A stretch of DNA of 64,000 nt from a candidate division WOR-3 bacterium (GCA_039802265.1 JBDRWI010000003.1:2072-66071), one strand, 5' to 3'; numbered from the stretch's first letter, positions 2,287-12,395 are shown. The notes: generated by a model from the sequence alone, not told the origin. Made by a program: numbers and translations.

Positions 2287-3218
2287 TAATTTTTGATGCG
2301 GTAGTAATCTATACCCTGATGATTGACCAGTCTTACTTTTTTATCGGCTATAAGATGGGCAAGAATCTTAACTGCCTCATTCCGATTCAATCTTAAAACA
2401 TTTGTTATATCGTTCAGTGTTACGGGTCTTCTTGCCAGTAGATTCAAAATTAAAGTTTCCTTTCTTTCTTTTGTAGTCCTACCCCTTTTTTCTTTAAAAT
2501 CAACAATTATTTCACATTCATTTCCCAGATATTTTTTTATTTTTAAGAGCTCTTCTTTCAATAACGGAAGGGCCCTGTCATCACTCGGGGGTCTGACCAC
2601 CGTATTCAATTGAACCCGCTCGGGTTTAATCTGTGATATAATCTTTTTCAATCCCTCAAGCTCCTCCTTGTTATCATTAAACCCTTTGATTAACATAATC
2701 TCTAACCAGATCTCTCCTTTATATTTTTTTCGAAACTCAATCAATCCCGAAATTGTCTTTTTTAAAGTTATTAAGGGATGTCCGCAATGAATCCTTTTAA
2801 ATGTCTCCAAGTTTGCTGTCGTCAGGGTTGGTAATACTACATCAGCCAAAAGGAGGTCTTGCTGGACCGAAGGCTTATAAAGAAGTGCACCGTTGGTAAT
2901 AACCGCAACAGGAATTTTGGTAAACTTCTTAATCGCACGGATTAAATACCCAATCTTCGAATTCAAGGTTGGTTCACCTGAACCCGAGAAGGTGATGAAA
3001 TCCACCCTCTTGTTTTTTTTGAGAGATTCTTTTAATTCCCTTAGTATTCTTTTTGGGGGTAAATAAATCCTGCGCCTCATTGTCTTGGTGGTGGTTCTCC
3101 CCAACTGGCAGTAGATACAATTATAGGTACAGGTTTTATAAGGAACCAGATCAATCCCCAGCGAAAGTCCGAGCCGTCGTGATGGAACCGGTCCGTAAAT
3201 TAAACTTGCCTCAGACAT
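2283..3218 (-). CDS. Radical SAM protein (COG0731-like) with a C-terminal HTH-like segment
   Basis: YGPVPSRRLGLSLG, CTYNCIYC (CxxxCxxC) and FSGSGEPTL. Confidence 0.9.
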   Translation of the reverse strand: MSEASLIYGPVPSRRLGLSLGIDLVPYKTCTYNCIYCQLGRTTTKTMRRRIYLPPKRILRELKESLKKNKRVDFITFSGSGEPTLNSKIGYLIRAIKKFTKIPVAVITNGALLYKPSVQQDLLLADVVLPTLTTANLETFKRIHCGHPLITLKKTISGLIEFRKKYKGEIWLEIMLIKGFNDNKEELEGLKKIISQIKPERVQLNTVVRPPSDDRALPLLKEELLKIKKYLGNECEIIVDFKEKRGRTTKERKETLILNLLARRPVTLNDITNVLRLNRNEAVKILAHLIADKKVRLVNHQGIDYYRIKNY

Positions 3219-4090
3219 TAAGATTTGACTTTTTTTATTCTATTGTTGTGGTCTAACAGAACAATCGTTGGTTTAAAATTGGGGGCGGTATTTATATCGG
3301 TGAGCATATAAGATAGAATACAAAGCCGATGCCCCACCTTACCCTTTAAAGAGGCTGGACCATAAAGGACAAATCTACCCGAATTTGGTTTTTCAGGAAT
3401 TGTGTAGGTCTCAAGCCGCTCGCCATTATCATAATTTAAAACCTGGACTCTTTCTCCAGGGATGATATTAGCAATTTCCATTATTCTTGCATCAATCCCC
3501 ATACTTCCTTTATAATGGAGGACTGTGGCGGTGATGGTTGCCTCGGTTATCTTTGACTTCAAGACCTCAACAAAGGAATTCCTTTTCCATTTTTCAAATC
3601 CCTCTTTGATGATTACCCGGTGGCTGGCAAAGGGAATCCGGGGAATATTCTCTTTTGGAAAGAATTGCACAGAAATTGTATCAGAACCCGATTTTAATCT
3701 TCCCCCTACCATCTTTATCCTGTATCCCAACAATAAAACATTCCCGTAAATCGTTGTTGATTCCGTATAGACCCCGACCAGCGAATGGACGCTTCCCTTT
3801 ATCCCTGTTTCTTCCCTCAATTCGCGCAATACCGCCTCTTCCGGTGATTCATTTTGTTCAATAAAACCTGAAGGCAATGCCCAATGTCCCTTCTTGGGTT
3901 CAACCCCTCTCCGGACAAGCAATATTTCACCTGCCTCATTCTGCACCAGGGCAGCCACAGCCGGCAATGGGTTCTGATAAGAATACCATCCACACTGCTG
4001 ACACTTGAGGTGGTGGCTTTTTTCTTTTTTTTGCTTAATCAACTTACTCCGACATAAAGGGCAGAATTGATAACCAATCACGTTTTTCAT
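3218..4090 (-). CDS. Zn-ribbon NUDIX hydrolase fused to aspartate 1-decarboxylase (PanD)-like domain
   Basis: CPLC...CQQC ribbon; Nudix box GFIEQNESPEEAVLRELREETG; C-terminal ~120 aa LKSKI...HYKG|SMGID...NGERLETY match PanD. Start placed at ATG 4090 because the promoter lies at 4097-4124. Confidence 0.85.
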   Translation of the reverse strand: MKNVIGYQFCPLCRSKLIKQKKEKSHHLKCQQCGWYSYQNPLPAVAALVQNEAGEILLVRRGVEPKKGHWALPSGFIEQNESPEEAVLRELREETGIKGSVHSLVGVYTESTTIYGNVLLLGYRIKMVGGRLKSGSDTISVQFFPKENIPRIPFASHRVIIKEGFEKWKRNSFVEVLKSKITEATITATVLHYKGSMGIDARIMEIANIIPGERVQVLNYDNGERLETYTIPEKPNSGRFVLYGPASLKGKVGHRLCILSYMLTDINTAPNFKPTIVLLDHNNRIKKVKS

Positions 4091-4096
4091 CAGGAT

Positions 4097-4184
4097 ATTA
4101 TATATAAAATTTAACAAAAATCAATGCCGGCTAATTCCTTTAGTCTATTTGGCTATTGACTTTCCTTTTAATTTTAATTATAAT
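4097..4184. promoter_or_regulatory. Divergent sigma70-type promoter pair
   Basis: Plus strand: TTGACT 4156-4161, 17 nt, TATAAT 4179-4184. Minus strand: TTGATT 4124-4119, 16 nt, TATAAT 4102-4097. Confidence 0.75.
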
Positions 4185-4189
4185 TACTT

Positions 4190-4603
4190 GTGGAAAAAAA
4201 CTTAGAAACAATTACCCTAACCTCCTCAAGTCTGGAAAAACTGGAAAGGTTATTGGGTAATTTCTGCACCCAGACGAATACTATCTGGGCAATCTTAATC
4301 ACTAACTCGGGGCACCTGATTGTTCAGCGGGGATTTGTCCGTCCATTTGATGTCCTGACAATTGCTGCACTGACGAGCAATATCTTTAACTCAACGATGG
4401 AATTGGCAAATCTTATCGGCGAAAAGAAATTCAGGGAATTATTTCAGGAAGGTACAAGGTCAAGTATATACTACATTTCTGTAGATACCAATTATCTATT
4501 AGTCTCAATGTTTGATGACCGCACAATACCCGGGGTAGTAAAGGTTGCCTCAGAAGAGTTTTCAAGGGCGGTGCGCGATATTATAAAAGAAGGATTAGAA
4601 TGA
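4190..4603 (+). CDS. Roadblock/LC7 (MglB-like) domain protein
   Basis: 137 aa with AILITNSGHLI, IAALTSNIFNSTMELANLIGEKKFRELFQEG and SMFDDRTIPGVVK, matching the MglB pattern. Confidence 0.85.
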   Translation: MEKNLETITLTSSSLEKLERLLGNFCTQTNTIWAILITNSGHLIVQRGFVRPFDVLTIAALTSNIFNSTMELANLIGEKKFRELFQEGTRSSIYYISVDTNYLLVSMFDDRTIPGVVKVASEEFSRAVRDIIKEGLE

Positions 4604-6447
4604 AAAATATCAGTTTAGAAAATTTTTATGTATACGAGGGGAATCGTGTGGCATATTTGGCCGCGCAAAAGATTATTCAATTTCCCGGAGAAATCTTTAA
4701 TCCATTTTATATATTCTCTGGTGGGAGCTTTGGTAAAACCCATCTCCTCTGGGCAATATATGAAGAGTTAAAAAAGAAAGGGGAGGTCTTCATATTTACC
4801 GGTAAGGAATTTGAAAAATACCTTGCGGATACCGATGTATTCAACACCCCGGTAATCGTTGATGACCTTCACCTTATTTCGGACAAATATCAGGAAAAAT
4901 TATTAACAATGATTGATGTGCTTTTGTTAAATAACAGGCAAATGTGTTTCTCCGGAAATGTAGCACCAAGGGAACTCAAAAACCTCAATCAAAAAATTAT
5001 CTCCCGATTGGAGGGTGGACTTGTCTGTGATATTTTACCCCCAAAAGAACTGCAGCTTGTTGAGTTTATCAAAAAAAAGTCTGAGGAAAAGGGGGTGATT
5101 ATACCGGATGAGATTGCCCTTGAACTAACCCACCTTGCAGTTGGTTCTTTAAGAACAGTTGAAGGAATGGTCAATCGCCTTGCCGCCTATGCATCTTTGG
5201 GTAATGTCTCCCTTGATTTAGGTAATATTCGTCTTATCCTCAAGGAATTCTATCCCAAGGGAATCTACAGTCCGGTATCATCCCTGCTTGAAGAATTGAA
5301 GAAGAACGCGGATGAGGTTCTTAATGAAATTGCTGAAGGAGTAGACCTCCGTAAGGAATATAAAGAAAAGATTTATATCTGGGAGATGAAGGGATTTGAT
5401 ATATCGGGATTGAAACCGCTTATTGAGGGGGATATAGAGGTCCTTACTAATGCATATAATGAATTTATCAAAAAAGTGGAAAGACTGATTGAACTACAAA
5501 AAGAGTTTGGTACCCTTGATACCAGTAAGGCACCGGAAGAGGCGATAAAGGTAGAGACCATGCTCTTCTCACCGGATAAAATTCCTGATATTGAAAAACT
5601 GATTGCCGAGATCAAGTCCCGAACACTTGAAACTGAAATGCCTCCCAAATTTGCTGAATATTTAGTTGGAGAGTGTAATCAGACTGCCTACGATATTTAT
5701 CATAATTCGATCGTCCCGAATTTAGGAAAAAGGTTCAATCCCTTTATTATATTCGGGGGCAAAGGAACGGGTAAGACTTATCTCCTTGAGGCGATCAGCG
5801 ACGACCTAAAACGCCGTCATTATAAGGTTTATTTTAATGACCTTGCTCAAGGGTCCGGGTTTACTTTTGAAGAGGAGGCGGGATTTAATGCCTTGATTCT
5901 GGATAACTTCTCAAGTATATTTTCTGCCGATGAAAAAAGGCGTAAGGATTTTTTTGAATTGATGATGTCGTTCATAAAAAATGACAGACCGGTCTTTATC
6001 GCCTCCCTCCCCTTTCCGGAGAATGTCGCACTCTCTGATGATGAACGATTGACCTTTGAATTGGGGATTGAAGTCTTTCTCTCACCACCCACGCCTGATA
6101 TTATTGAAAAAATTTTGCGTAAGAGGCTAAAAGAGGCAGAGTTAGAAGAAGCCCAGAAAAAGGGCATTCCAGCGTTCAATTCATTTTATGAGATTGATGA
6201 ATATGTAAATTCCCTTCTTAAAAAAATGCCCGAGCCTGAGGCGGTATCCGAGATTGTCCATCTTGGATTACCGGGTGAAGAAGAGCCTACATCGGTACCG
6301 GTTGAGCAGGAAATAACTGAGAAATCTACCCCGGAAAAGCAAGTGGTGCTTGAAGAATTAGCGCCCCATCCGCCACTAAAGAAATTAAAGGAAGAGCGCT
6401 TGATTCTCACCCACATTGCTGATGAATTGATTGAAGAGAATTTTTAA
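4600..6447 (+). CDS. Protein with two tandem DnaA/Hda-type AAA+ domains; lacks DnaA domains I and IV
   Basis: Domain 1: ENFYVYEGNRVAY, FNPFYI, GKTHLL, IVDDLH, SRLEGGL, RTVEG. Domain 2: EYLVGECNQTAY, FNPFIIFGGKGTGKTYLL, ILDN. Acidic low-complexity tail; no DnaA-box-binding HTH. Confidence 0.85.
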   Translation: MKNISLENFYVYEGNRVAYLAAQKIIQFPGEIFNPFYIFSGGSFGKTHLLWAIYEELKKKGEVFIFTGKEFEKYLADTDVFNTPVIVDDLHLISDKYQEKLLTMIDVLLLNNRQMCFSGNVAPRELKNLNQKIISRLEGGLVCDILPPKELQLVEFIKKKSEEKGVIIPDEIALELTHLAVGSLRTVEGMVNRLAAYASLGNVSLDLGNIRLILKEFYPKGIYSPVSSLLEELKKNADEVLNEIAEGVDLRKEYKEKIYIWEMKGFDISGLKPLIEGDIEVLTNAYNEFIKKVERLIELQKEFGTLDTSKAPEEAIKVETMLFSPDKIPDIEKLIAEIKSRTLETEMPPKFAEYLVGECNQTAYDIYHNSIVPNLGKRFNPFIIFGGKGTGKTYLLEAISDDLKRRHYKVYFNDLAQGSGFTFEEEAGFNALILDNFSSIFSADEKRRKDFFELMMSFIKNDRPVFIASLPFPENVALSDDERLTFELGIEVFLSPPTPDIIEKILRKRLKEAELEEAQKKGIPAFNSFYEIDEYVNSLLKKMPEPEAVSEIVHLGLPGEEEPTSVPVEQEITEKSTPEKQVVLEELAPHPPLKKLKEERLILTHIADELIEENF

Positions 6448-6466
6448 TCTATGTTAAAAAATTGAT

Positions 6467-8074
6467 ATGGCAATCAAAGGTTCATTGAGTGAAGCGAATC
6501 TACCCGATGTGATACAGCTTTTAAGTTTTTCTCTAAAATCGGGTTGTCTTTCTGTTACTGATGGCAGAAATTTCGGTAACATATTTATAAAAGAGGGCAA
6601 GATAGTCTATGCAACTCTGTTAAATAGAAAAGACCGTCTTGGCGATGTACTCTTAAAAAAAGGAATAATTGATGAATCCATGCTTAAGCAGGCCCTTGAA
6701 GAACAGCGTACCAAGAGCAAGAGACTGGGTGAGATTTTAGTCGAGAAAGGTTTCATCACTCAGGAAATACTGGCGCAGGAGTTGACCAATCAGATTACGG
6801 AAACGATCTTCACAATGCTCACCTGGGAGAGTGGATATTTCAACTTTGAGGCAGATTTACTCCCTGGACCGGGTGAGTTTCTGGTTCAACTTTCACCCCA
6901 GCAGGTTCTACTTGAAGGCGCACGGCGTATTGACGAGTGGCGCAAGATTGAAAATAAACTCCCTCCTTTTGAAACTGTCCTTGTTGTAAAATCCGAAACT
7001 CAGGGTGTGCCCCTCACCCTTGAAGAAGAGAAGGTGTTATCGTTGATCGATGGAACACGTACCATTGATGATATCCTCAAGCTCTCAGAATTCGACTTTT
7101 TTGAGACCTGTCGGACAATTTATGGCCTAATTTCTGCCGGGCTGGTGGAGAAACCCAAAAAAACCCTGATTGAGAAGAAGACGGTCGGTGATATTACCGA
7201 ATATAAAAATTTAGGTTTTGCCTTCCTCAAGACTGAAATGTATGAAGAGGCGGAGCGTGAATTCAAGAAGATTCTGGAAATTGACCCCAATAATGTCGAG
7301 GCGCTGTTATACCAGGGTTTGATTGAATTGAGGAGAAAAAATTATGACCGGGCAAAGGAATATTTGACCAGGGCAGATAGCATCGAAAAACGTCCATCAA
7401 TCTTAAATAATCTTGGTTATCTTTATCTTCTGACCGATGAAGTTGAATTGGCCCTTAAATTTTTAACTCAGGCAAAAGAGAGCGCACCGGATAACCCAAA
7501 GGTAAATTGCAACTTGGGTATTGCCCATTATAAAAACGGAGAGCTGGATAAGGCAAGGGAGATTTTAAGTCAGGTTATTGAGAAGAAACCGGAACTTTTA
7601 ACTCCCCATATCTATCTTTCTGTAATCCTTGTAAAAATTGCTACAATTAGAGGGGGTAAAGAAGAAGTAGATGAAGCCATCAATTTTCTAAAGACCTGTA
7701 TTAATAGATTCCCGAGAAATGAAATCTTCAAGAATAATCTTGCGGTTTTATATGAAGCAATTGACTTACCGGAAGAGGCAGAAAGGTCCTATCGTCAGGC
7801 ACTTGAGGATGCGCCTAATGATTATTTTGTTTTGAAAAACCTCGCTGATTTCTATTACGAATCCCAGATTTTAGGAGCCGCCCGGGAATTATATGAGAAG
7901 ATTCCCGAAGAAAAGAGAGACTGGGAGGTTTTATTTAAACTGGGAAACATTTATATGCGCCAGGGCGATACGGAAGAGGCGCTAAATAACTGGCAAAAGG
8001 CAAAGGCCTTGAATCCCGAACAGGAGATTATTACCCGCAATATTGAAGTCCTGCAGAAGGCCCGTGGAAAATAA
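6467..8074 (+). CDS. DUF4388 + tandem MshEN (c-di-GMP-binding motif) + TPR repeat protein
   Basis: MAIKGSLSEANLPDVIQLL and W-x-x-G-x-F-x-F (DUF4388); two RLGxxLxxxGxIxxxxLxxxLxxQ motifs; LLEGARRIDEW; multiple C-terminal TPRs. Confidence 0.85.
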   Translation: MAIKGSLSEANLPDVIQLLSFSLKSGCLSVTDGRNFGNIFIKEGKIVYATLLNRKDRLGDVLLKKGIIDESMLKQALEEQRTKSKRLGEILVEKGFITQEILAQELTNQITETIFTMLTWESGYFNFEADLLPGPGEFLVQLSPQQVLLEGARRIDEWRKIENKLPPFETVLVVKSETQGVPLTLEEEKVLSLIDGTRTIDDILKLSEFDFFETCRTIYGLISAGLVEKPKKTLIEKKTVGDITEYKNLGFAFLKTEMYEEAEREFKKILEIDPNNVEALLYQGLIELRRKNYDRAKEYLTRADSIEKRPSILNNLGYLYLLTDEVELALKFLTQAKESAPDNPKVNCNLGIAHYKNGELDKAREILSQVIEKKPELLTPHIYLSVILVKIATIRGGKEEVDEAINFLKTCINRFPRNEIFKNNLAVLYEAIDLPEEAERSYRQALEDAPNDYFVLKNLADFYYESQILGAARELYEKIPEEKRDWEVLFKLGNIYMRQGDTEEALNNWQKAKALNPEQEIITRNIEVLQKARGK

Positions 8075-8843
8075 CTTTGTAGAACTGATTCAATTTATTG
8101 AGAAAAAGACCTCATTTCCCTGCACCAAATATAAAGTAAGGCCACTACAAAGAAGAATCAGGGTACGCATGCGTGACCTTGGAATTGTTGATTTTTCACA
8201 ATATTATGAATTTTTGAAAAACAATCCAGAGGAGTTTGAGAAACTTTTAAGCGTATTGACGATCAATCTCTCTTATTTTTTTCGAAACCCGGAGACATTT
8301 AACTATCTGAAGGAATCGATCTTCGTTGAACTTTCAAAAAAGGAGCGTTTGATTTTCTGGAGTGCGGGCTGTGCCCAGGGTGAAGAGCCCTACTCCCTTG
8401 CCCTCCTTGCCGCCGAGATGGGAATGCTTGAGCGAATTAAAATATACGGCACAGACATCGACCAGAAGGCATTAAGCCAGGCAAAGGAAGGGATATATCT
8501 ACCGGTGACATTTCAATATACCCCGCAATATCTGATTGAGAAATACTTCAATAAAAAGAACAATCATTTTCAAATCATAGAGGAGATCCGTTCGGTCGTA
8601 GAATTTTATAATCTTGACCTATTTAGTAATGTTCCATTTCGTGATTGTGATCTTATTATGTGCCGAAATGTCTTAATATATTTACAGAAAGAGGCACAAT
8701 CCGAACTTCTTCTAAAATTCTACAAACTCCTAAAACCGGCTGGTTATTTGGTGATTGGTAAAGTAGAACTACTGCTGGGAATCCCCGAGGCAAAATTCTT
8801 TGAGCCGGTAAGTCAAGCAGAAAGGATATATAGAAAGATTTGA
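8064..8843 (+). CDS. cheR: Protein-glutamate O-methyltransferase CheR
   Basis: LTINLSYFFR, WSAGCAQGEEPYS, GTDID and DLIMCRNVLIY. GTG at 8064 preferred over TTG at 8043. Confidence 0.93.
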   Translation: MENNFVELIQFIEKKTSFPCTKYKVRPLQRRIRVRMRDLGIVDFSQYYEFLKNNPEEFEKLLSVLTINLSYFFRNPETFNYLKESIFVELSKKERLIFWSAGCAQGEEPYSLALLAAEMGMLERIKIYGTDIDQKALSQAKEGIYLPVTFQYTPQYLIEKYFNKKNNHFQIIEEIRSVVEFYNLDLFSNVPFRDCDLIMCRNVLIYLQKEAQSELLLKFYKLLKPAGYLVIGKVELLLGIPEAKFFEPVSQAERIYRKI

Positions 8844-8865
8844 TTGACTTGAAGATGGTTGAGAT

Positions 8866-9324
8866 ATGACCGAATTAAAGGTGGGAATTGGTGAGGTAAG
8901 GGTTGAAAGGGGTGATGTGGTTCTTTCAGCATACGGTGTGGGGTCCTGTGTAGTGGTGGTCTTTTATGAAAAGGAAAAAAAAGTAGGAGGCCTTGCCCAT
9001 ATCCTTCTGCCCGGTGGAAATGAAGAGAGTCTCAAAACCTGTGGTGGTGCGATAAAGGAACTCTTAAGAAGATTTGAGGCACTGGGAATAAAAAGGGAAA
9101 ATATTGTGGCAAAGATTGCCGGTGGTGCTACAATGTTTAAAGAATTCAATCACTCCTCCATCGGCAAAAGGAATGTTATGGAAACCAGGGCACTTTTGGG
9201 AAAACTTGGGATACCGATTGTGGGTGAAGATGTACTGGGCGAGCGGGGCAGGACGGTTATCTTTAATCTCAAAAACGGTGAGGTGAGGGTAAGGTCTTAT
9301 CGTCGGGGTGAAAAGATTATATGA
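8866..9324 (+). CDS. cheD: Glutamine deamidase CheD
   Basis: GVGSCV (catalytic Cys), GLAHILLP (His), AKIAGGATMF, IGKRN. Confidence 0.93.
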   Translation: MTELKVGIGEVRVERGDVVLSAYGVGSCVVVVFYEKEKKVGGLAHILLPGGNEESLKTCGGAIKELLRRFEALGIKRENIVAKIAGGATMFKEFNHSSIGKRNVMETRALLGKLGIPIVGEDVLGERGRTVIFNLKNGEVRVRSYRRGEKII

Positions 9325-10337
9325 AAAAAAAGGTCTTGATTGTTGAGGATTCAATATTGATGCAGCGGGTGCTCGGTGATATTATCAAAAATAGTATAGA
9401 ATTTGAGGTATGTGCCTATGCCCGGAGTGTTGATGAGGGCTGGGCAAAGTTCAATAGACTCAAACCGGATATCATCACCCTTGATTATGAACTACCCGGA
9501 GAAAATGGGCTCGTCTTACTGAAGAAGATAATGGAACATAAACCTACACCGGTTCTTATGATCTCGGCCCATACCAAAGAAGGGGCAGAGTTGACCATAA
9601 AATCCTTAAAGATGGGGGCGGTTGACTTCTTTACAAAACCCTCCGGTCCGATCTCTCTTGACCTATATCAGTACAAAGAGGAACTGTTGAAAAAGCTCAT
9701 TTCGGTTGCCCAGGCAAATGTCTATTTCCGGGAAGAGAGTCCACTTATAAAGGTCCGGCAGCGCAGGCTTGATTATTATATCGGAATTGCCTCTTCAACC
9801 GGTGGGGTAAGAACATTGAATAGGTTGATCCCTCAATTTCCCAATGAGAGTGGTCTACGGATAATGGTGGTGCAACATATGCCCAGATTCTTCACCACCA
9901 GCCTCGCCCATCATCTAAATGAACAGTCAACCCTGGTAGTAAAAGAGGCACAGGATAACGATGAGATTTTACCGGACGAGGTTCTGATTGCACCCGGTGG
10001 CCTCCACATGAAGGTAAATGATACCGGAGAAAGGGTAATACTTTCTGATGAACCACCAAGGCATGGGGTAAAACCATCCGCCGATATCCTGTTTGAATCA
10101 ATGGCACAAGTCTACCAAAAGAAGATGATTGGTATAATTCTGAGTGGAATGGGGCATGATGGAACAATGGGGCTTAGAAAGGTTAAAGAGCGGGGCGGTA
10201 TTGTAATTGCCCAGGACCCAAAGGAGGCGACCATCGCGGGTATGCCTCAATCTGCAATTGAATCCGGGATTGTTGATTATATCCTTCCAGTAGCGAATAT
10301 CCCGGCGAAGATTATGGAGATTGCCGAAGATGACTGA
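9321..10337 (+). CDS. cheB: Receiver + methylesterase CheB
   Basis: REC domain (VED, DIITLD, KP); catalytic Ser/His/Asp in ASSTGG, VQHMP and GMGHDG. Confidence 0.95.
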   Translation: MKKKVLIVEDSILMQRVLGDIIKNSIEFEVCAYARSVDEGWAKFNRLKPDIITLDYELPGENGLVLLKKIMEHKPTPVLMISAHTKEGAELTIKSLKMGAVDFFTKPSGPISLDLYQYKEELLKKLISVAQANVYFREESPLIKVRQRRLDYYIGIASSTGGVRTLNRLIPQFPNESGLRIMVVQHMPRFFTTSLAHHLNEQSTLVVKEAQDNDEILPDEVLIAPGGLHMKVNDTGERVILSDEPPRHGVKPSADILFESMAQVYQKKMIGIILSGMGHDGTMGLRKVKERGGIVIAQDPKEATIAGMPQSAIESGIVDYILPVANIPAKIMEIAEDD

Positions 10338-11202
10338 AAAGATACAGGAGAAACTTGAGACATTAAAAAAGATGGTGGCTGATTACAAACCGCAGCTGGA
10401 GCAAGATATCAAAGAACTTATCAAGGGGATCTATATTGAAATTGCCAGTGCAAGTAAGGCATTAACTCAGGCCCAGGATGAATTGAGACGGATTGTCCTT
10501 GAAATTAAGAGCAAAAAGATATCGCAGGTTGATGCAGGTAGATTCTATGCATTCTTAAAATCAAAGACCTCGGCTGAACTTGATATTGCTACACTCATTG
10601 ACCGAGCCTGGAATCTTATTGTTGTGGAGGAAAATGACGAGGCAATAAAGGTTTTGAATGAGGCATTAAATATCAATCCCAAACATATTCGTGCCCTCGG
10701 GCTAATGGGACTGGCATTGATGAATAAGGAGTTGTACGATGAGGCAATGCTCTATTTTCAGAAGGTCTTGATTCAAGAACCCGAAAGCCCATTTGCCCTG
10801 AATAATTTAGGATTTATCTGCTACAAGAAGGGAATATGGGGCGAGGCGATTGAACACCTCTCAAAGGTAACAAAACAGACAAAGGACCGACAGGCAAGGC
10901 TTTATGCCAATTATTATCTTGGACTTGTCTATTATGAACGGGGAATGATTTCTGATGCAGTAAGATTTTTTGAGGAGGCAATAAAGATTGGACCCAATCT
11001 CCAGGAGGCCTACTACTACTTAGGAATGGCCGAGTTAAAAAGGTATGAATTCAAAAAGGCGGTAGAGTGGTTTGAAAGGTGTATCAAAATTGATGAGTCA
11101 ACCAAATATGCCCGACTCGCCAAAGAGGAACTGGCAAAGATAAAACCAATAACCGAGCCAGAGAAGATAATGAAGAAAAATTTGGGCAAGGATTCCCAAT
11201 AA
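10330..11202 (+). CDS. Coiled-coil + TPR repeat protein
   Basis: Helical N-terminus followed by about five TPR units. ATG 10330 overlaps the end of cheB. Confidence 0.8.
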   Translation: MTEKIQEKLETLKKMVADYKPQLEQDIKELIKGIYIEIASASKALTQAQDELRRIVLEIKSKKISQVDAGRFYAFLKSKTSAELDIATLIDRAWNLIVVEENDEAIKVLNEALNINPKHIRALGLMGLALMNKELYDEAMLYFQKVLIQEPESPFALNNLGFICYKKGIWGEAIEHLSKVTKQTKDRQARLYANYYLGLVYYERGMISDAVRFFEEAIKIGPNLQEAYYYLGMAELKRYEFKKAVEWFERCIKIDESTKYARLAKEELAKIKPITEPEKIMKKNLGKDSQ

Positions 11203-11982
11203 ATGAATCTGAAAGATATAATGTGTGATATTGCAGATTTCATTATCCATACTGGAGACTTTATATATAGAGTATCAAGACAAAAAAAGAGAATCCATTA
11301 CAAGGGGGCAGTTGACCTTGTAACCCAGTTTGATAAAATCTCCCAGCGGCGAATCGTCAATTTTCTTAAAAAGCAATTCCCCGATTTTGGAATTCTGAGT
11401 GAAGAGAACTTCCACCACCAGCGAGACAGTCAAATCAGGTGGATCCTTGACCCCCTTGATGGTACGACCAACTTTGCCCATAATCTTCCAATCTGGTCAA
11501 TCTCACTCGCCCTGGAGGTTGAAATGGAGATTGTCCTCGGAGTGGTTTACGACCCAACAAGAAGGGAGTTATTCTCCGCAATAAAGAGTCGGGGTGCCTA
11601 TTTAAATGGGAAGAGAATCAGGGTCTCAAGGACAAAGGATTTAAAAAAGAGCCTTTTGGTTACAGGATTTCCCTATGATATCCGGACCTCAAAGGATAAC
11701 AACATCAAAAATTTTGCGAAATTCTGTCTTTCTTCCCAGGCAGTAAGGAGGCTTGGCTCAGCTGCACTTGACCTCTGCTATACTGCCTGTGGCCGCTTTG
11801 ATGGATACTGGGAATTGAAATTATCACCCTGGGATCAGGCAGCGGGGTATTTAATCTTAAAAGAGGCAGGGGGAAAAATAACAGATTTTAAAGGGAATCC
11901 ATTTAGTATCTATGGGAGGGAGGTCTTAGGCACAAACGGCCTCATTCACAACCAGATGATAGAAATCCTTAATAAAAATTAA
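11203..11982 (+). CDS. suhB: Inositol monophosphatase family protein
   Basis: WILDPLDGTTNFAH, RRLGSAALDL and LSPWDQAAG. Confidence 0.93.
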   Translation: MNLKDIMCDIADFIIHTGDFIYRVSRQKKRIHYKGAVDLVTQFDKISQRRIVNFLKKQFPDFGILSEENFHHQRDSQIRWILDPLDGTTNFAHNLPIWSISLALEVEMEIVLGVVYDPTRRELFSAIKSRGAYLNGKRIRVSRTKDLKKSLLVTGFPYDIRTSKDNNIKNFAKFCLSSQAVRRLGSAALDLCYTACGRFDGYWELKLSPWDQAAGYLILKEAGGKITDFKGNPFSIYGREVLGTNGLIHNQMIEILNKN

Positions 11983-12000
11983 AAAAATTTATTTTATCCC

Positions 12001-12028
12001 TTGACAAATTAAAATTTTTGCATATAAT
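12001..12028 (+). promoter_or_regulatory. Sigma70-type promoter of the DUF2089 operon
   Basis: TTGACA 12001-12006, 16 nt, TATAAT 12023-12028; ATG at 12036. Confidence 0.75.
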
Positions 12029-12035
12029 ATATATT

Positions 12036-12395
12036 ATGATTAAGAAATTTAAAAATTGTCCATCCTGCGGGGAGAGGATGGTGATAAGTGAATTAAAGTG
12101 CCCTAAATGTGATTTGAGGGTAAAGAAGGATTTTACCCCTTGCGAATTCTGTCAGCTTCCGGAAGAGGATTATGAATTCTTAAAGGTCTTTTTGAGAACC
12201 GAGGGTAAGATAACCGATATGGAAAAGATTTTGAATGTCTCATACCCCACGATAAAGGCAAGGTTAAAGTCTCTATTAAACAGTCTCAATCTATCACCGA
12301 TTGGAGAGCCAATCGACCCGATTGAGGCAATTGCCCAGGGAAAGATTTCGGTTGATGAGGCAGTTGCGATATTAAAGAGCAGGAGGCAGAGATGA
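12036..12395 (+). CDS. DUF2089 family Zn-ribbon/HTH protein
   Basis: CPSC...CPKC, LNVSYPTIKARL and C-terminal GKISVDEA. Confidence 0.88.
   Translation: MIKKFKNCPSCGERMVISELKCPKCDLRVKKDFTPCEFCQLPEEDYEFLKVFLRTEGKITDMEKILNVSYPTIKARLKSLLNSLNLSPIGEPIDPIEAIAQGKISVDEAVAILKSRRQR

What the first reader, a model, noticed from the sequence alone, without database searches (positions are those of the whole stretch)
4190..11982. Receptor-less Che modification module wired to MglB, a double DnaA-type ATPase and a c-di-GMP-motif scaffold
Seen: one promoter is followed by tightly packed or overlapping genes: Roadblock/MglB, tandem DnaA-like AAA+, DUF4388-MshEN-TPR, CheR, CheD, CheB, TPR, suhB. CheR, CheD and CheB keep their catalytic motifs. 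No MCP, CheA, CheW, CheY, MglA or flagellar gene occurs in the 64 kb. Known: CheR/CheB/CheD normally methylate, demethylate and deamidate chemoreceptors; MglB and DUF4388 proteins act in polarity and type IV pilus control. Inference: a writer/eraser/primer set for glutamate methylation repurposed onto a non-receptor substrate in the operon, linking c-di-GMP, polarity and possibly the cell cycle. I do not know of a described system with this composition.
Basis: partly seen in the sequence, partly recalled or inferred. Interest (0 to 1): 0.88.

Follow-up and report, generated by a model that had tools for sequence, protein, structure and literature searches.

The report
Split chemosensory pathway wired to MglA polarity
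This operon holds the receptor-modifying enzymes of an ordinary but split chemotaxis-like pathway, joined to a conserved, unstudied trio of proteins that belongs with the MglA polarity switch and probably steers pilus-based movement in a non-flagellated hot-spring bacterium.

Summary
The genome is not receptor-less, however. Other contigs carry four MCPs, three CheW, one CheA, CheY and CheC. CheR, CheD and CheB are single copy.

Across 40 related genomes, CheR is found only where CheA and MCPs are found. The CheR-CheD-CheB-TPR block was lost three separate times, each time in a genome that lacks the ancestral kinase and receptors. In distant relatives (TA06 and others) CheW-MCP-CheW directly follows the same operon. 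The "non-receptor substrate" idea is therefore not supported.

The finding that holds is a conserved trio:
- an MglB-like Roadblock protein;
- a tandem DnaA-clade AAA+ ATPase without a DNA-binding domain;
- a PATAN-MshEN-TPR protein.

This trio survives without any Che genes. In relatives mglA lies directly upstream of it. A co-fold model docks the ATPase's C-terminal peptide in the TPR groove (0.61 against 0.02 for the best control).

No flagellar export gene was found in any of the 40 genomes, while pilus ATPases are present. The most likely role is Frz-like control of pilus motility and polarity. I rate it a new variant of a known kind.

The parts
4156..4184 (+). Sigma-70-like promoter (TTGACT-17-TATAAT, 11 of 12) just before the first gene
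4190..4603 (+). Roadblock/LC7 protein, an MglB paralogue ('MglB2'), 137 aa
   Evidence: Pfam Robl_LC7 scores 26.5 bits against a cut-off of 23. The best solved relatives are MglB (6h5b, E 5e-12). It is 36% identical to the genome's MglB on C35. The mglA2 orthologue lies directly upstream in 7 of 28 related genomes.
4600..6447 (+). Tandem DnaA-clade AAA+ ATPase ('AAA2'), 615 aa. It has an N-terminal module, a helical middle region, a second AAA+ module and a disordered acidic tail.
   Evidence: Pfam Bac_DnaA matches twice. The PDB profile hits DnaA domain III at E 1.8e-45. The AF2 model has pLDDT 74.9. Foldseek gives TMt 0.81-0.82 to DnaA domain III. In the alignment Walker A and Walker B (DD) are invariant in module 1, and module 2 has an invariant DN. 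No DnaA_C domain was found.
6376..6444 (+). C-terminal peptide of AAA2 (residues 593-615, ending in a conserved acidic-aromatic motif), predicted to lie in the TPR groove of the next protein
   Evidence: It is conserved in 11 of 11 orthologues. The co-fold gives ipSAE 0.61 against a best control of 0.02.
6467..8074 (+). PATAN (DUF4388) - MshEN - TPR protein, 535 aa
   Evidence: Pfam DUF4388 scores 122.5 bits, with many TPR families. 16 orthologues are aligned.
6635..6793 (+). MshEN-type c-di-GMP-binding motif (residues 57-109), inserted in the PATAN domain
   Evidence: Both halves fit the strict motif. NF053729 scores 63 bits against a cut-off of 38. The stretch is 43-44% identical to the N-termini of PilB-like genes on C44 and C48.
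8043..8843 (+). CheR methyltransferase (single copy in the genome)
   Evidence: Pfam CheR 171.7 bits and CheR_N 42.7 bits. It aligns to 5ftw and 1af7. tblastn finds only the gene itself.
8866..9324 (+). CheD deamidase (single copy)
   Evidence: Pfam CheD. It aligns to 2f9z with the Cys and His motif columns kept. tblastn finds only the gene itself.
9321..10337 (+). CheB, receiver domain plus methylesterase (single copy)
   Evidence: Pfam. NF001965 scores 342.6 bits against a cut-off of 293. It aligns to 1a2o and 6ymz.
10321..11202 (+). TPR protein of 293 aa that travels with CheR-CheD-CheB
   Evidence: Pfam TPR families. It is lost together with CheRDB in G019, G027, G037 and G038. It follows CheB in distant loci L074, L075, L077, L078 and L080-L083.
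11203..11982 (+). SuhB-type inositol monophosphatase family gene, last gene of the unit. It is probably a passenger.
   Evidence: Pfam Inositol_P 223.9 bits. It follows the operon in the order's families f1 and f2, but was not hit after it in the f3 loci or the distant loci.

Best explanation
The operon joins two modules.

(1) CheR, CheD, CheB and a dedicated 293-aa TPR protein are the only adaptation enzymes found for this genome's single CheA-based chemosensory pathway. The rest of that pathway lies on other contigs: MCP-CheW-CheY-CheA-CheC-TPR-TPR/Roadblock on C17, AAA_22-CheW-MCP-CheW on C93, and further MCPs on C8 and C4. The enzymes most likely act on those MCPs in the usual way (inferred, not assayed).

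(2) The MglB-like Roadblock protein, the tandem DnaA-clade AAA+ ATPase and the PATAN-MshEN-TPR protein form a conserved trio. The trio belongs with the small GTPase MglA and also exists in relatives that have no Che pathway.

No flagellar export gene was found in the whole order, and type IV pilus ATPases and two MglA paralogues are present. The pathway therefore most likely steers pilus-based surface movement or cell polarity through MglA. This resembles Frz in Myxococcus and the PATAN regulators of cyanobacteria.

Inferred working model: the ATPase is tethered by its C-terminal peptide to the TPR groove of the PATAN protein. ATP (through the AAA+ modules) and, in this species, c-di-GMP (through MshEN) set the state of the complex. 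The Roadblock protein couples it to MglA2.
For: Pathway present in the genome: MCPsignal gives 5 hits in 4 proteins, CheW gives 4 hits and the CheA dimerisation domain gives 1, all outside the window's contig. Their domain composition was checked.

Single copy: CheR, CheD and the CheB esterase are single copy.

Candidate substrate: the C93 MCP has 5 matches to the methylation consensus, including a Q-containing site. The Roadblock protein, AAA2, the PATAN-TPR protein and both other TPR proteins have 0.

Co-variation in 40 relatives:
- CheA is found in 30 and MCPsignal in the same 30.
- Strong CheR (E <= 1e-45) is found in 28 of those 30. The exceptions are G003 (67% complete) and G013 (the contig ends beside the operon).
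- Strong CheR is found in 0 of the 10 genomes without CheA and MCPs.

Short operon: Roadblock-AAA2-PATAN/TPR-SuhB without CheRDB-TPR occurs in G019, G027, G037 and G038 (Roadblock beyond the contig end in G038). This pattern needs 3 changes on the AAA2 tree.

Distant loci: L074, L077 and L078 continue CheB-TPR-(AAA_22)-CheW-MCP(-CheW) on the same strand.

Link to MglA:
- An MglA orthologue lies directly upstream of AAA2 in the 5 distant loci examined.
- The mglA2 orthologue lies directly upstream of the Roadblock gene in 7 of 28 related genomes.
- Genomes without Che keep two MglA paralogues and 4-8 T2SSE ATPases.

Motility machinery: FHIPEP was found in 0 of 40 genomes. The own genome has 7 T2SSE-family genes over the cut-off, including two of PilB size.

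c-di-GMP: the own genome has 12 GGDEF hits.

Co-fold of the AAA2 tail with the TPR domain:
- Median ipSAE is 0.61 (runs 0.61, 0.68, 0.60); the best of 3 controls is 0.02.
- The runs agree in at least 59% of their contacts; the partner's pLDDT is at least 43.
- In calibration the mark was reached by 58 of 80 solved complexes and 2 of 110 mismatched pairs. These counts hold only roughly here, because my own alignments were used.

Literature (passages only): PATAN regulators bind PilB1, some PATAN proteins carry GspE_N, and MglA/MglB genes lie near PATAN genes (10.1101/2021.06.11.447907; PMC4316618).
Against: - No biochemistry exists: methylation of the MCPs, GAP activity, nucleotide binding and any motility phenotype are all untested.
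- The genome is 89.3% complete, so a second adaptation set or flagellar genes could in principle lie in the missing part. The 5 closed genomes among the relatives argue against flagella.
- The strict double MshEN motif is present in only 1 of 16 orthologues. A relaxed motif in both halves is present in 2 of 16, and in neither half in 6 of 16. c-di-GMP input is therefore not a conserved property of the trio.
- The trio persists without Che genes, so its tie to the pathway may be looser than an obligate output.
- The co-fold may pass by likeness to solved TPR-peptide complexes, and the partner's own fold is uncertain.
- The three-losses count rests on a quick single-gene tree, and G037 and G038 are 87% and 79% complete.
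- The pathway has CheC and CheD, which I recall as typical of flagellar-type classes and not of the Pil-Chp class. Its class was not determined.
Confidence: 0.65

Rival explanations
1. One reading: CheR, CheD and CheB have been repurposed to methylate, demethylate and deamidate a non-receptor protein of the operon (AAA2, the PATAN-TPR protein or the TPR protein).
For: The adjacency to the trio is tight and conserved across very distant lineages. The AAA2 tail is glutamate-rich. A listing shows that CheR can methylate a non-receptor (PhoP in Salmonella, PMC8546571; title and abstract start only).
Against: MCPs, CheW and CheA exist and co-vary with the enzymes. An MCP lies in the same operon in distant relatives. 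The operon's non-enzyme proteins have no match to the methylation consensus, against 5 in the C93 MCP. The trio, including the conserved tail motif, is kept unchanged where CheRDB are lost.
Confidence: 0.07
2. The adjacency is inherited synteny without functional meaning. The trio and the adaptation genes work in unrelated processes and merely share a transcript, as suhB probably does.
For: suhB, a housekeeping-type gene, is also in the unit. The trio functions without Che genes in at least four genomes. In L072 an AAA2-like gene sits with a large TPR protein and no Che genes.
Against: The order AAA2-PATAN/TPR-CheR-CheD(-CheB-TPR) is kept in 10 of 14 distant loci at 22-30% AAA2 identity (two of them cut by contig ends), while the flanking genes differ. 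The CheA cluster itself ends with TPR and TPR-Roadblock proteins, and that arrangement is conserved in G034, G036 and G018. Stop and start codons overlap.
Confidence: 0.15
3. AAA2 is an Hda-like regulator of replication initiation, so the operon ties chemosensing or polarity to the cell cycle.
For: Module 1 is a complete DnaA domain III with Walker A, Walker B and box VII/VIII-like motifs.
Against: No DnaA_C or domain I was detected. TIGR00362 scores 175 bits against a cut-off of 343.9, and the Hda model TIGR03420 scores 97 against 194.8. Every genome has a separate DnaA of about 440 aa. The gene's neighbours are MglA, Roadblock and PATAN, not replication genes. The tail is predicted to dock on TPR.
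Confidence: 0.08

Closest known systems
Frz chemosensory system acting on MglA/MglB polarity in Myxococcus xanthus
   Same: A Che-type pathway with CheR and CheB in a non-flagellar setting, coupled to the MglA GTPase and a Roadblock GAP, with TPR proteins involved. The Frz-MglA link is taken from passages of PMC4316618 and from listings of PMC3441718.
   Different: - Here mglA or its Roadblock partner is encoded in the same operon as Che genes. In M. xanthus mglA is not near its partners (PMC4316618 passage).
- CheA is not fused to a receiver domain, and the MCP has a multi-pass membrane domain.
- CheC and CheD are present.
- TPR is a separate protein, not fused to CheR (the FrzF fusion is recalled).
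- A tandem DnaA-like ATPase and a PATAN-MshEN protein are added.
Cyanobacterial Tax/Pix systems with PATAN-REC (PatA-type) regulators that bind PilB1
   Same: A PATAN-domain protein is encoded with a chemosensory pathway in an organism that moves by type IV pili (10.1101/2021.06.11.447907, passages).
   Different: The PATAN protein here has no receiver domain. It carries an inserted MshEN motif and a C-terminal TPR domain.
MshEN c-di-GMP receptor domain of Vibrio cholerae MshE
   Same: Two 24-residue motifs with a 5-residue spacer (PMC5013675 abstract and passages).
   Different: It is inserted in a PATAN domain and not at the N-terminus of a secretion ATPase. The binding residues are not conserved in most orthologues.
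DnaA domain III and Hda (initiator-clade AAA+)
   Same: The fold and nucleotide motifs of module 1.
   Different: The module is duplicated, and the second module has a DN Walker B. There is no DNA-binding domain, there is a disordered tail with a docking peptide, and the scores fall below the family cut-offs.
MglB / MglC Roadblock proteins
   Same: The Roadblock fold family, with MglB as the best solved match, paired with an MglA paralogue in relatives.
   Different: It is only 36% identical to the genome's own MglB and shorter (137 aa against 173 aa). Whether it is a GAP like MglB or an adaptor like MglC is unknown. MglC did not appear among the PDB hits.
TPR domains binding C-terminal peptides (Hsp70/Hsp90 EEVD with Hop/CHIP; recalled) and SgmX, the TPR effector of MglA
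   Same: An acidic C-terminal peptide at the end of a disordered linker is predicted to lie in a TPR groove. In M. xanthus a TPR protein links MglA to pili (PMC7519303 and PMC7668184, listings only).
   Different: The motif and the partners differ, and the binding is predicted only.

Membership tests
Chemoreceptor adaptation module (CheR/CheB/CheD acting on MCPs) | CheR with an N-terminal helical domain and a SAM-binding domain | tested here: met
   Pfam CheR_N and CheR; aligned to 5ftw and 1af7 over both domains
Chemoreceptor adaptation module (CheR/CheB/CheD acting on MCPs) | CheB with a receiver domain and an esterase domain, with the Ser/His/Asp motif columns kept (residue roles recalled) | tested here: met
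   Alignment to 6ymz and 1a2o; NF001965 above its cut-off
Chemoreceptor adaptation module (CheR/CheB/CheD acting on MCPs) | CheD with the Cys/His motif columns kept (residue roles recalled) | tested here: met
   Alignment to 2f9z
Chemoreceptor adaptation module (CheR/CheB/CheD acting on MCPs) | MCPs, CheW and CheA present in the same genome and co-occurring across relatives | tested here: met
Chemoreceptor adaptation module (CheR/CheB/CheD acting on MCPs) | MCP with methylation-site consensus (consensus recalled) | tested here: met
   5 matches in the C93 MCP, 1 each in the C8 and C17 MCPs
Chemoreceptor adaptation module (CheR/CheB/CheD acting on MCPs) | Methylation, demethylation and deamidation of the MCPs actually occur | not testable with these tools
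   Needs biochemistry
MglA/MglB GTPase-GAP module | Roadblock/LC7 protein most similar to MglB | tested here: met
   below the NCBIfam MglB equivalog cut-off (50 against 200 bits)
MglA/MglB GTPase-GAP module | Cognate mglA adjacent | tested here: inconclusive
   Not adjacent in this window (mglA2 is on C14). Adjacent in 7 of 28 related genomes.
MglA/MglB GTPase-GAP module | GAP activity on MglA | not testable with these tools
   Needs an assay
MshEN c-di-GMP receptor domain | Tandem 24-residue motifs with a 5-residue spacer | tested here: met
MshEN c-di-GMP receptor domain | Motif conserved among orthologues | tested here: not met
   Strict motif in both halves in 1 of 16; relaxed motif in both halves in 2 of 16
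PATAN (DUF4388) domain proteins | Match to PF14332 | tested here: met
   122.5 bits against a cut-off of 25
DnaA / Hda | Domain IV (DnaA_C) for DnaA, or a family model above its cut-off | tested here: not met
   No DnaA_C among the Pfam hits. TIGR00362 scores 175 against 343.9, and TIGR03420 scores 97 against 194.8.
Frz-type system | CheA-CheY fusion, cytoplasmic MCP and CheR-TPR fusion (features recalled) | tested here: not met
   CheA of 501 aa has no receiver domain. The C93 MCP has about 6 hydrophobic segments. CheR of 266 aa has no TPR.
Pil-Chp (Tfp class) chemosensory system | Class assignment by CheA/MCP class models | not tested
   No class HMMs were available. The presence of CheC and CheD argues against it (recalled).

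The most novel reading that the evidence does not exclude
The Roadblock protein, the tandem DnaA-clade AAA+ ATPase and the PATAN-(MshEN)-TPR protein are a previously undescribed nucleotide-gated polarity module of MglA in WOR-3, TA06 and related candidate phyla. In this reading the ATPase polymerises or switches in the way DnaA does, but on a TPR scaffold instead of on DNA. It is tethered by a C-terminal peptide, and it is the point where a chemosensory pathway, and in some species c-di-GMP, reset pilus polarity.
Probability: 0.3. Interest if true: 0.75.

Novelty: new variant of a known kind. Interest (0 to 1): 0.5.

Why it matters
A chemosensory pathway talking to the MglA polarity switch has so far been known in Myxococcus, where the genes are scattered. 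Here the genes for both are written into one operon, in deep-branching uncultured phyla.

This gives independent genomic support that Che-to-MglA coupling is old and widespread. It also names three candidate coupling proteins that can be expressed and tested. One of them is an uncharacterised family of tandem DnaA-like ATPases that databases annotate only as "DnaA/Hda family" or hypothetical.

The case also carries a warning: a "receptor-less" Che module seen in a single window can be one piece of a split pathway.

Tried and rejected
- The phylum-wide scan with the AAA2 profile was swamped by true DnaA, so its tally of 136 of 151 is not usable. From the listed rows, two-module hits in frames of at least 580 aa occur in at least 19 genomes outside the order. 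43 matches were not listed.
- Foldseek on the AAA2 model gave only DnaA and generic double-ring AAA+ matches, and no clue to the helical middle region.
- I considered AAA2 as DnaA or Hda and rejected both.
- I considered the Roadblock protein as MglC-like. Only MglB structures were hit, so this is unresolved.
- The look-up of sequencing runs listed no RNA holder. Two runs labelled metatranscriptomic are marked "probably DNA" and are kept as contigs. I therefore did not run read laying, and I make no statement on expression or co-transcription.
- Literature searches for this composite system found no paper describing a DnaA-like ATPase with MglA, PATAN or Che genes, and none describing Che genes in WOR-3. 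These searches cover only the held library.
Supplementary table S2 of PMC4316618 (MglA gene neighbourhoods) may already list neighbourhoods of this kind.
- I did not determine the chemosensory class or the MCP heptad class.

Full report
**What is in the window**

The region 4190-11982 holds eight + strand genes that overlap or nearly touch. Pfam assigns them as follows:
- Roadblock/LC7 (137 aa)
- a 615-aa protein with two DnaA-type AAA+ modules
- a 535-aa DUF4388 (PATAN) plus TPR protein
- CheR
- CheD
- CheB (receiver plus esterase)
- a 293-aa TPR protein
- an inositol-monophosphatase family protein

A near-consensus promoter-like site lies at 4156-4184, and a perfect one at 12001-12028 opens the next unit. 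No + strand terminator-like site lies between them. Weaker internal sites exist, so one promoter is plausible but not shown.

Residues 57-109 of the PATAN protein carry both halves of the strict MshEN c-di-GMP motif (motif from PMC5013675, abstract and passages). They also match NCBIfam NF053729 above its cut-off.

CheB, CheD and CheR align over their full length to solved enzymes, with the active-site motif columns kept. The roles of those residues are recalled, not taken from a call. The flanking genes are housekeeping or unrelated.

**The genome is not receptor-less**

The window is part of contig C3 of a 2.30-Mb assembly in 110 contigs, 89.3% complete. Family searches of that assembly found three things, all on other contigs:
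- MCPsignal in four proteins, on C8, C93, C17 and C4
- CheW domains at four places, on C17 and C93
- one CheA dimerisation domain, on C17

The domain scans show these arrangements:
- C17: MCP fused to SBP_bac_5 (1104 aa), CheW, CheY, CheA (501 aa), CheC, a 794-aa TPR protein and a TPR-Roadblock protein
- C93: AAA_22, CheW, MCP (520 aa), CheW
- C8: a HAMP-MCP beside an NtrC-type regulator
- C4: a second MCP-SBP_bac_5 protein

tblastn finds CheR, CheD and the CheB esterase only once in the genome.

The C93 MCP has five matches to the methylation-site consensus (recalled), one of them containing Gln. The Roadblock protein, AAA2, the PATAN-TPR protein and the TPR proteins have none.

**Co-variation across relatives**

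The tandem AAA+ protein was found in 39 of 40 genomes, counting the window's own. The 39 relatives come from three families of one order, and the miss is a 67%-complete genome.

In ten loci fetched around it:
- the full eight-gene order is kept in six;
- two loci from family f3 have the first six genes;
- two closed genomes of genus g9 have Roadblock-AAA2-PATAN/TPR-SuhB with no CheR, CheD, CheB or TPR.

The CheA dimerisation domain is found in 30 of 40 genomes and MCPsignal in the same 30. A strong CheR match (E <= 1e-45) is found in 28 of those 30. The two exceptions are G003 (67% complete) and G013, whose contig ends beside the operon. No strong CheR match occurs in any of the ten genomes without CheA and MCPs.

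G037 and G038 also carry the short operon (in G038 the contig ends before the Roadblock gene). G037 has CheA, an MCP and a 486-aa CheR, but in a different cluster on another contig.

On a quick maximum-likelihood tree of 30 AAA2 proteins, the short form needs three changes. This is a single-gene tree built with the quick method, and two of the genomes are incomplete.

The CheA cluster, with its two TPR proteins, is conserved in G034, G036 and G018. A CheW-MCP-CheW cluster lies elsewhere in G034. The three-locus layout is therefore a property of the order.

**Distant relatives join the pieces**

A scan of species-representative genomes returned 29 loci. The record titles of the close ones read "Candidatus Stahlbacteria". 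Protein names from another search read "candidate division WOR-3". The distant loci include candidate division TA06 and unnamed MAGs.

Of the 14 distant loci (L072-L085), ten have PATAN/TPR-CheR-CheD. Two of these are cut by contig ends, and in the other eight CheB and TPR follow.

In L074 and L077 the same strand continues with AAA_22-CheW-MCP(-CheW), and in L078 with CheW-MCP. There the window's operon and the C93 cluster form a single unit.

In the five distant loci I examined, the gene directly upstream of AAA2 is an MglA orthologue. It is 54-61% identical to this genome's MglA and has the threonine-containing switch motif. That MglA homologues carry Thr in this position comes from the abstract start of PMC3000849.

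Within the order, the orthologue of this genome's second MglA (on C14) lies directly upstream of the Roadblock gene in 7 of 28 genomes. In this genome that mglA2 has moved, and it sits behind a DHH/DHHA1 phosphoesterase gene. A standard MglB-MglA pair is on C35.

**What the trio looks like**

Module 1 of AAA2 is a full DnaA domain III: E 1.8e-45 to B. subtilis DnaA by profile, and TMt 0.81-0.82 by Foldseek.

In 11 orthologues:
- Walker A and the DD Walker B of module 1 are invariant;
- module 2 has an invariant DN;
- a helical middle region is well conserved;
- a disordered acidic tail ends in a conserved acidic-aromatic motif.

No DnaA C-terminal domain is detected, and the DnaA and Hda models score far below their cut-offs. 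Each genome also has a normal DnaA.

The co-fold of the tail (residues 545-615) with the TPR domain (residues 240-535) gave these results:
- Median ipSAE is 0.61 (runs 0.61, 0.68, 0.60), against 0.02 for the best of three controls.
- The runs agree in at least 59% of their contacts, and the partner's pLDDT is at least 43.
- The contacts are between residues 593-615 and the groove formed by residues 254-461.
- In calibration the mark was reached by 58 of 80 solved complexes and 2 of 110 mismatched pairs. This holds only roughly here, because my own alignments were used.
- The tool states that the model supports binding but does not show it, and that a pass may reflect likeness to solved complexes.

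The MshEN motif is strict in only 1 of 16 orthologues. c-di-GMP sensing therefore looks like a feature of this lineage and not of the family. The genome has 12 GGDEF hits.

**Likely function**

The flagellar export protein family FHIPEP was found in none of the 40 genomes, five of them closed. This genome has seven T2SSE-family genes over the cut-off, two of PilB size. The Che-less relatives keep two MglA paralogues and 4-8 such ATPases.

Published passages say that:
- PATAN-REC regulators bind the pilus motor PilB1;
- some PATAN proteins carry GspE_N;
- MglA/MglB genes lie near PATAN genes (10.1101/2021.06.11.447907; PMC4316618).

I therefore read the operon as the adaptation half of a split, non-flagellar chemosensory pathway, fused to an MglA-linked module that most likely controls pilus polarity. 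The presence, co-variation and synteny of the genes are shown. The enzymes' substrates, the output and all protein contacts are inferred.

**Comparison and novelty**

It works like Frz plus MglA/MglB, but it fails the recalled Frz hallmarks (no CheA-CheY fusion, a membrane MCP, no CheR-TPR fusion). It resembles the cyanobacterial PATAN systems but has no receiver domain on the PATAN protein.

The MglB-PATAN neighbourhood and PATAN-GspE_N proteins are already in print. Five searches of the held library did not find two things:
- the tandem DnaA-like ATPase in this context;
- an operon that joins mglA or its Roadblock partner to Che genes.

Supplements were closed and may hold relevant neighbourhood tables.

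**Verdict:** a new variant of a known kind, of moderate interest. The "non-receptor substrate" reading is not supported.

Noticed in passing
window 3218-4117 (-): A single ORF combines a NUDIX domain with an aspartate decarboxylase (PanD) domain. It is transcribed divergently from the operon.
   Followed up: no
G000 C17:16827-20141 and C4:33588-36884 (L011, L048): Two proteins of about 1100 aa join MCP signalling stretches (two in the C17 frame) to a family-5 solute-binding domain. Frames of 1047-1139 aa with the same hits recur across the order. This is an unusual receptor architecture.
   Followed up: partly
G000 C24:13807-16751 (-); L077:2540-5472: A PilT-like ATPase gene sits between accB and accC, both in this genome and in a distant relative at 70% identity.
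   Followed up: partly
G000 C14:8154-10255 (L093): The second MglA paralogue overlaps the end of a 501-aa DHH/DHHA1 phosphoesterase gene. ORFs of similar size (507 and 142 aa) precede mglA2 in G034.
   Followed up: partly
L072:2726-11055: A MAG labelled Gemmatimonadetes has two bactofilin genes, then tsaD, gatC and gatA, then an 898-aa TPR protein like the one in the CheA cluster, and then a 697-aa tandem DnaA-like protein. No Che genes are present.
   Followed up: partly
G000 C8:32416-35354 (L013): A HAMP-MCP gene overlaps by one base the start of an NtrC-type sigma-54 response regulator gene.
   Followed up: no
G000 C93:3119-3922 (L012): The AAA_22 protein before CheW-MCP-CheW resembles the PEP-CTERM-associated ATPase model TIGR03015 (218 bits, below the cut-off of 324.5). 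It keeps this position in L074 and L077.
   Followed up: partly
G036 C1:1301003-1304633; G037 C19; G018 C26; G016 C4: A few relatives carry a second, different Che cluster with a CheR of 436-489 aa. In G036 and G037 a longer CheA (649 and 776 aa) lies nearby.
   Followed up: no
G000 C6:18188-19162, C18:25492-26127, C63:9996-10832: Three more PATAN-domain proteins are in the genome. One lies beside accA.
   Followed up: no
window 4100-12100: Near-identical DNA is held in 8 public runs of hot-spring metagenomes from 2 studies. One of them may be the source of this DNA.
   Followed up: no
window 12001-12028 (+): A 12-of-12 sigma-70 consensus lies in front of the DUF2089 gene and overlaps the longest ORF's TTG start at 12018. 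The real start is therefore probably further downstream.
   Followed up: no
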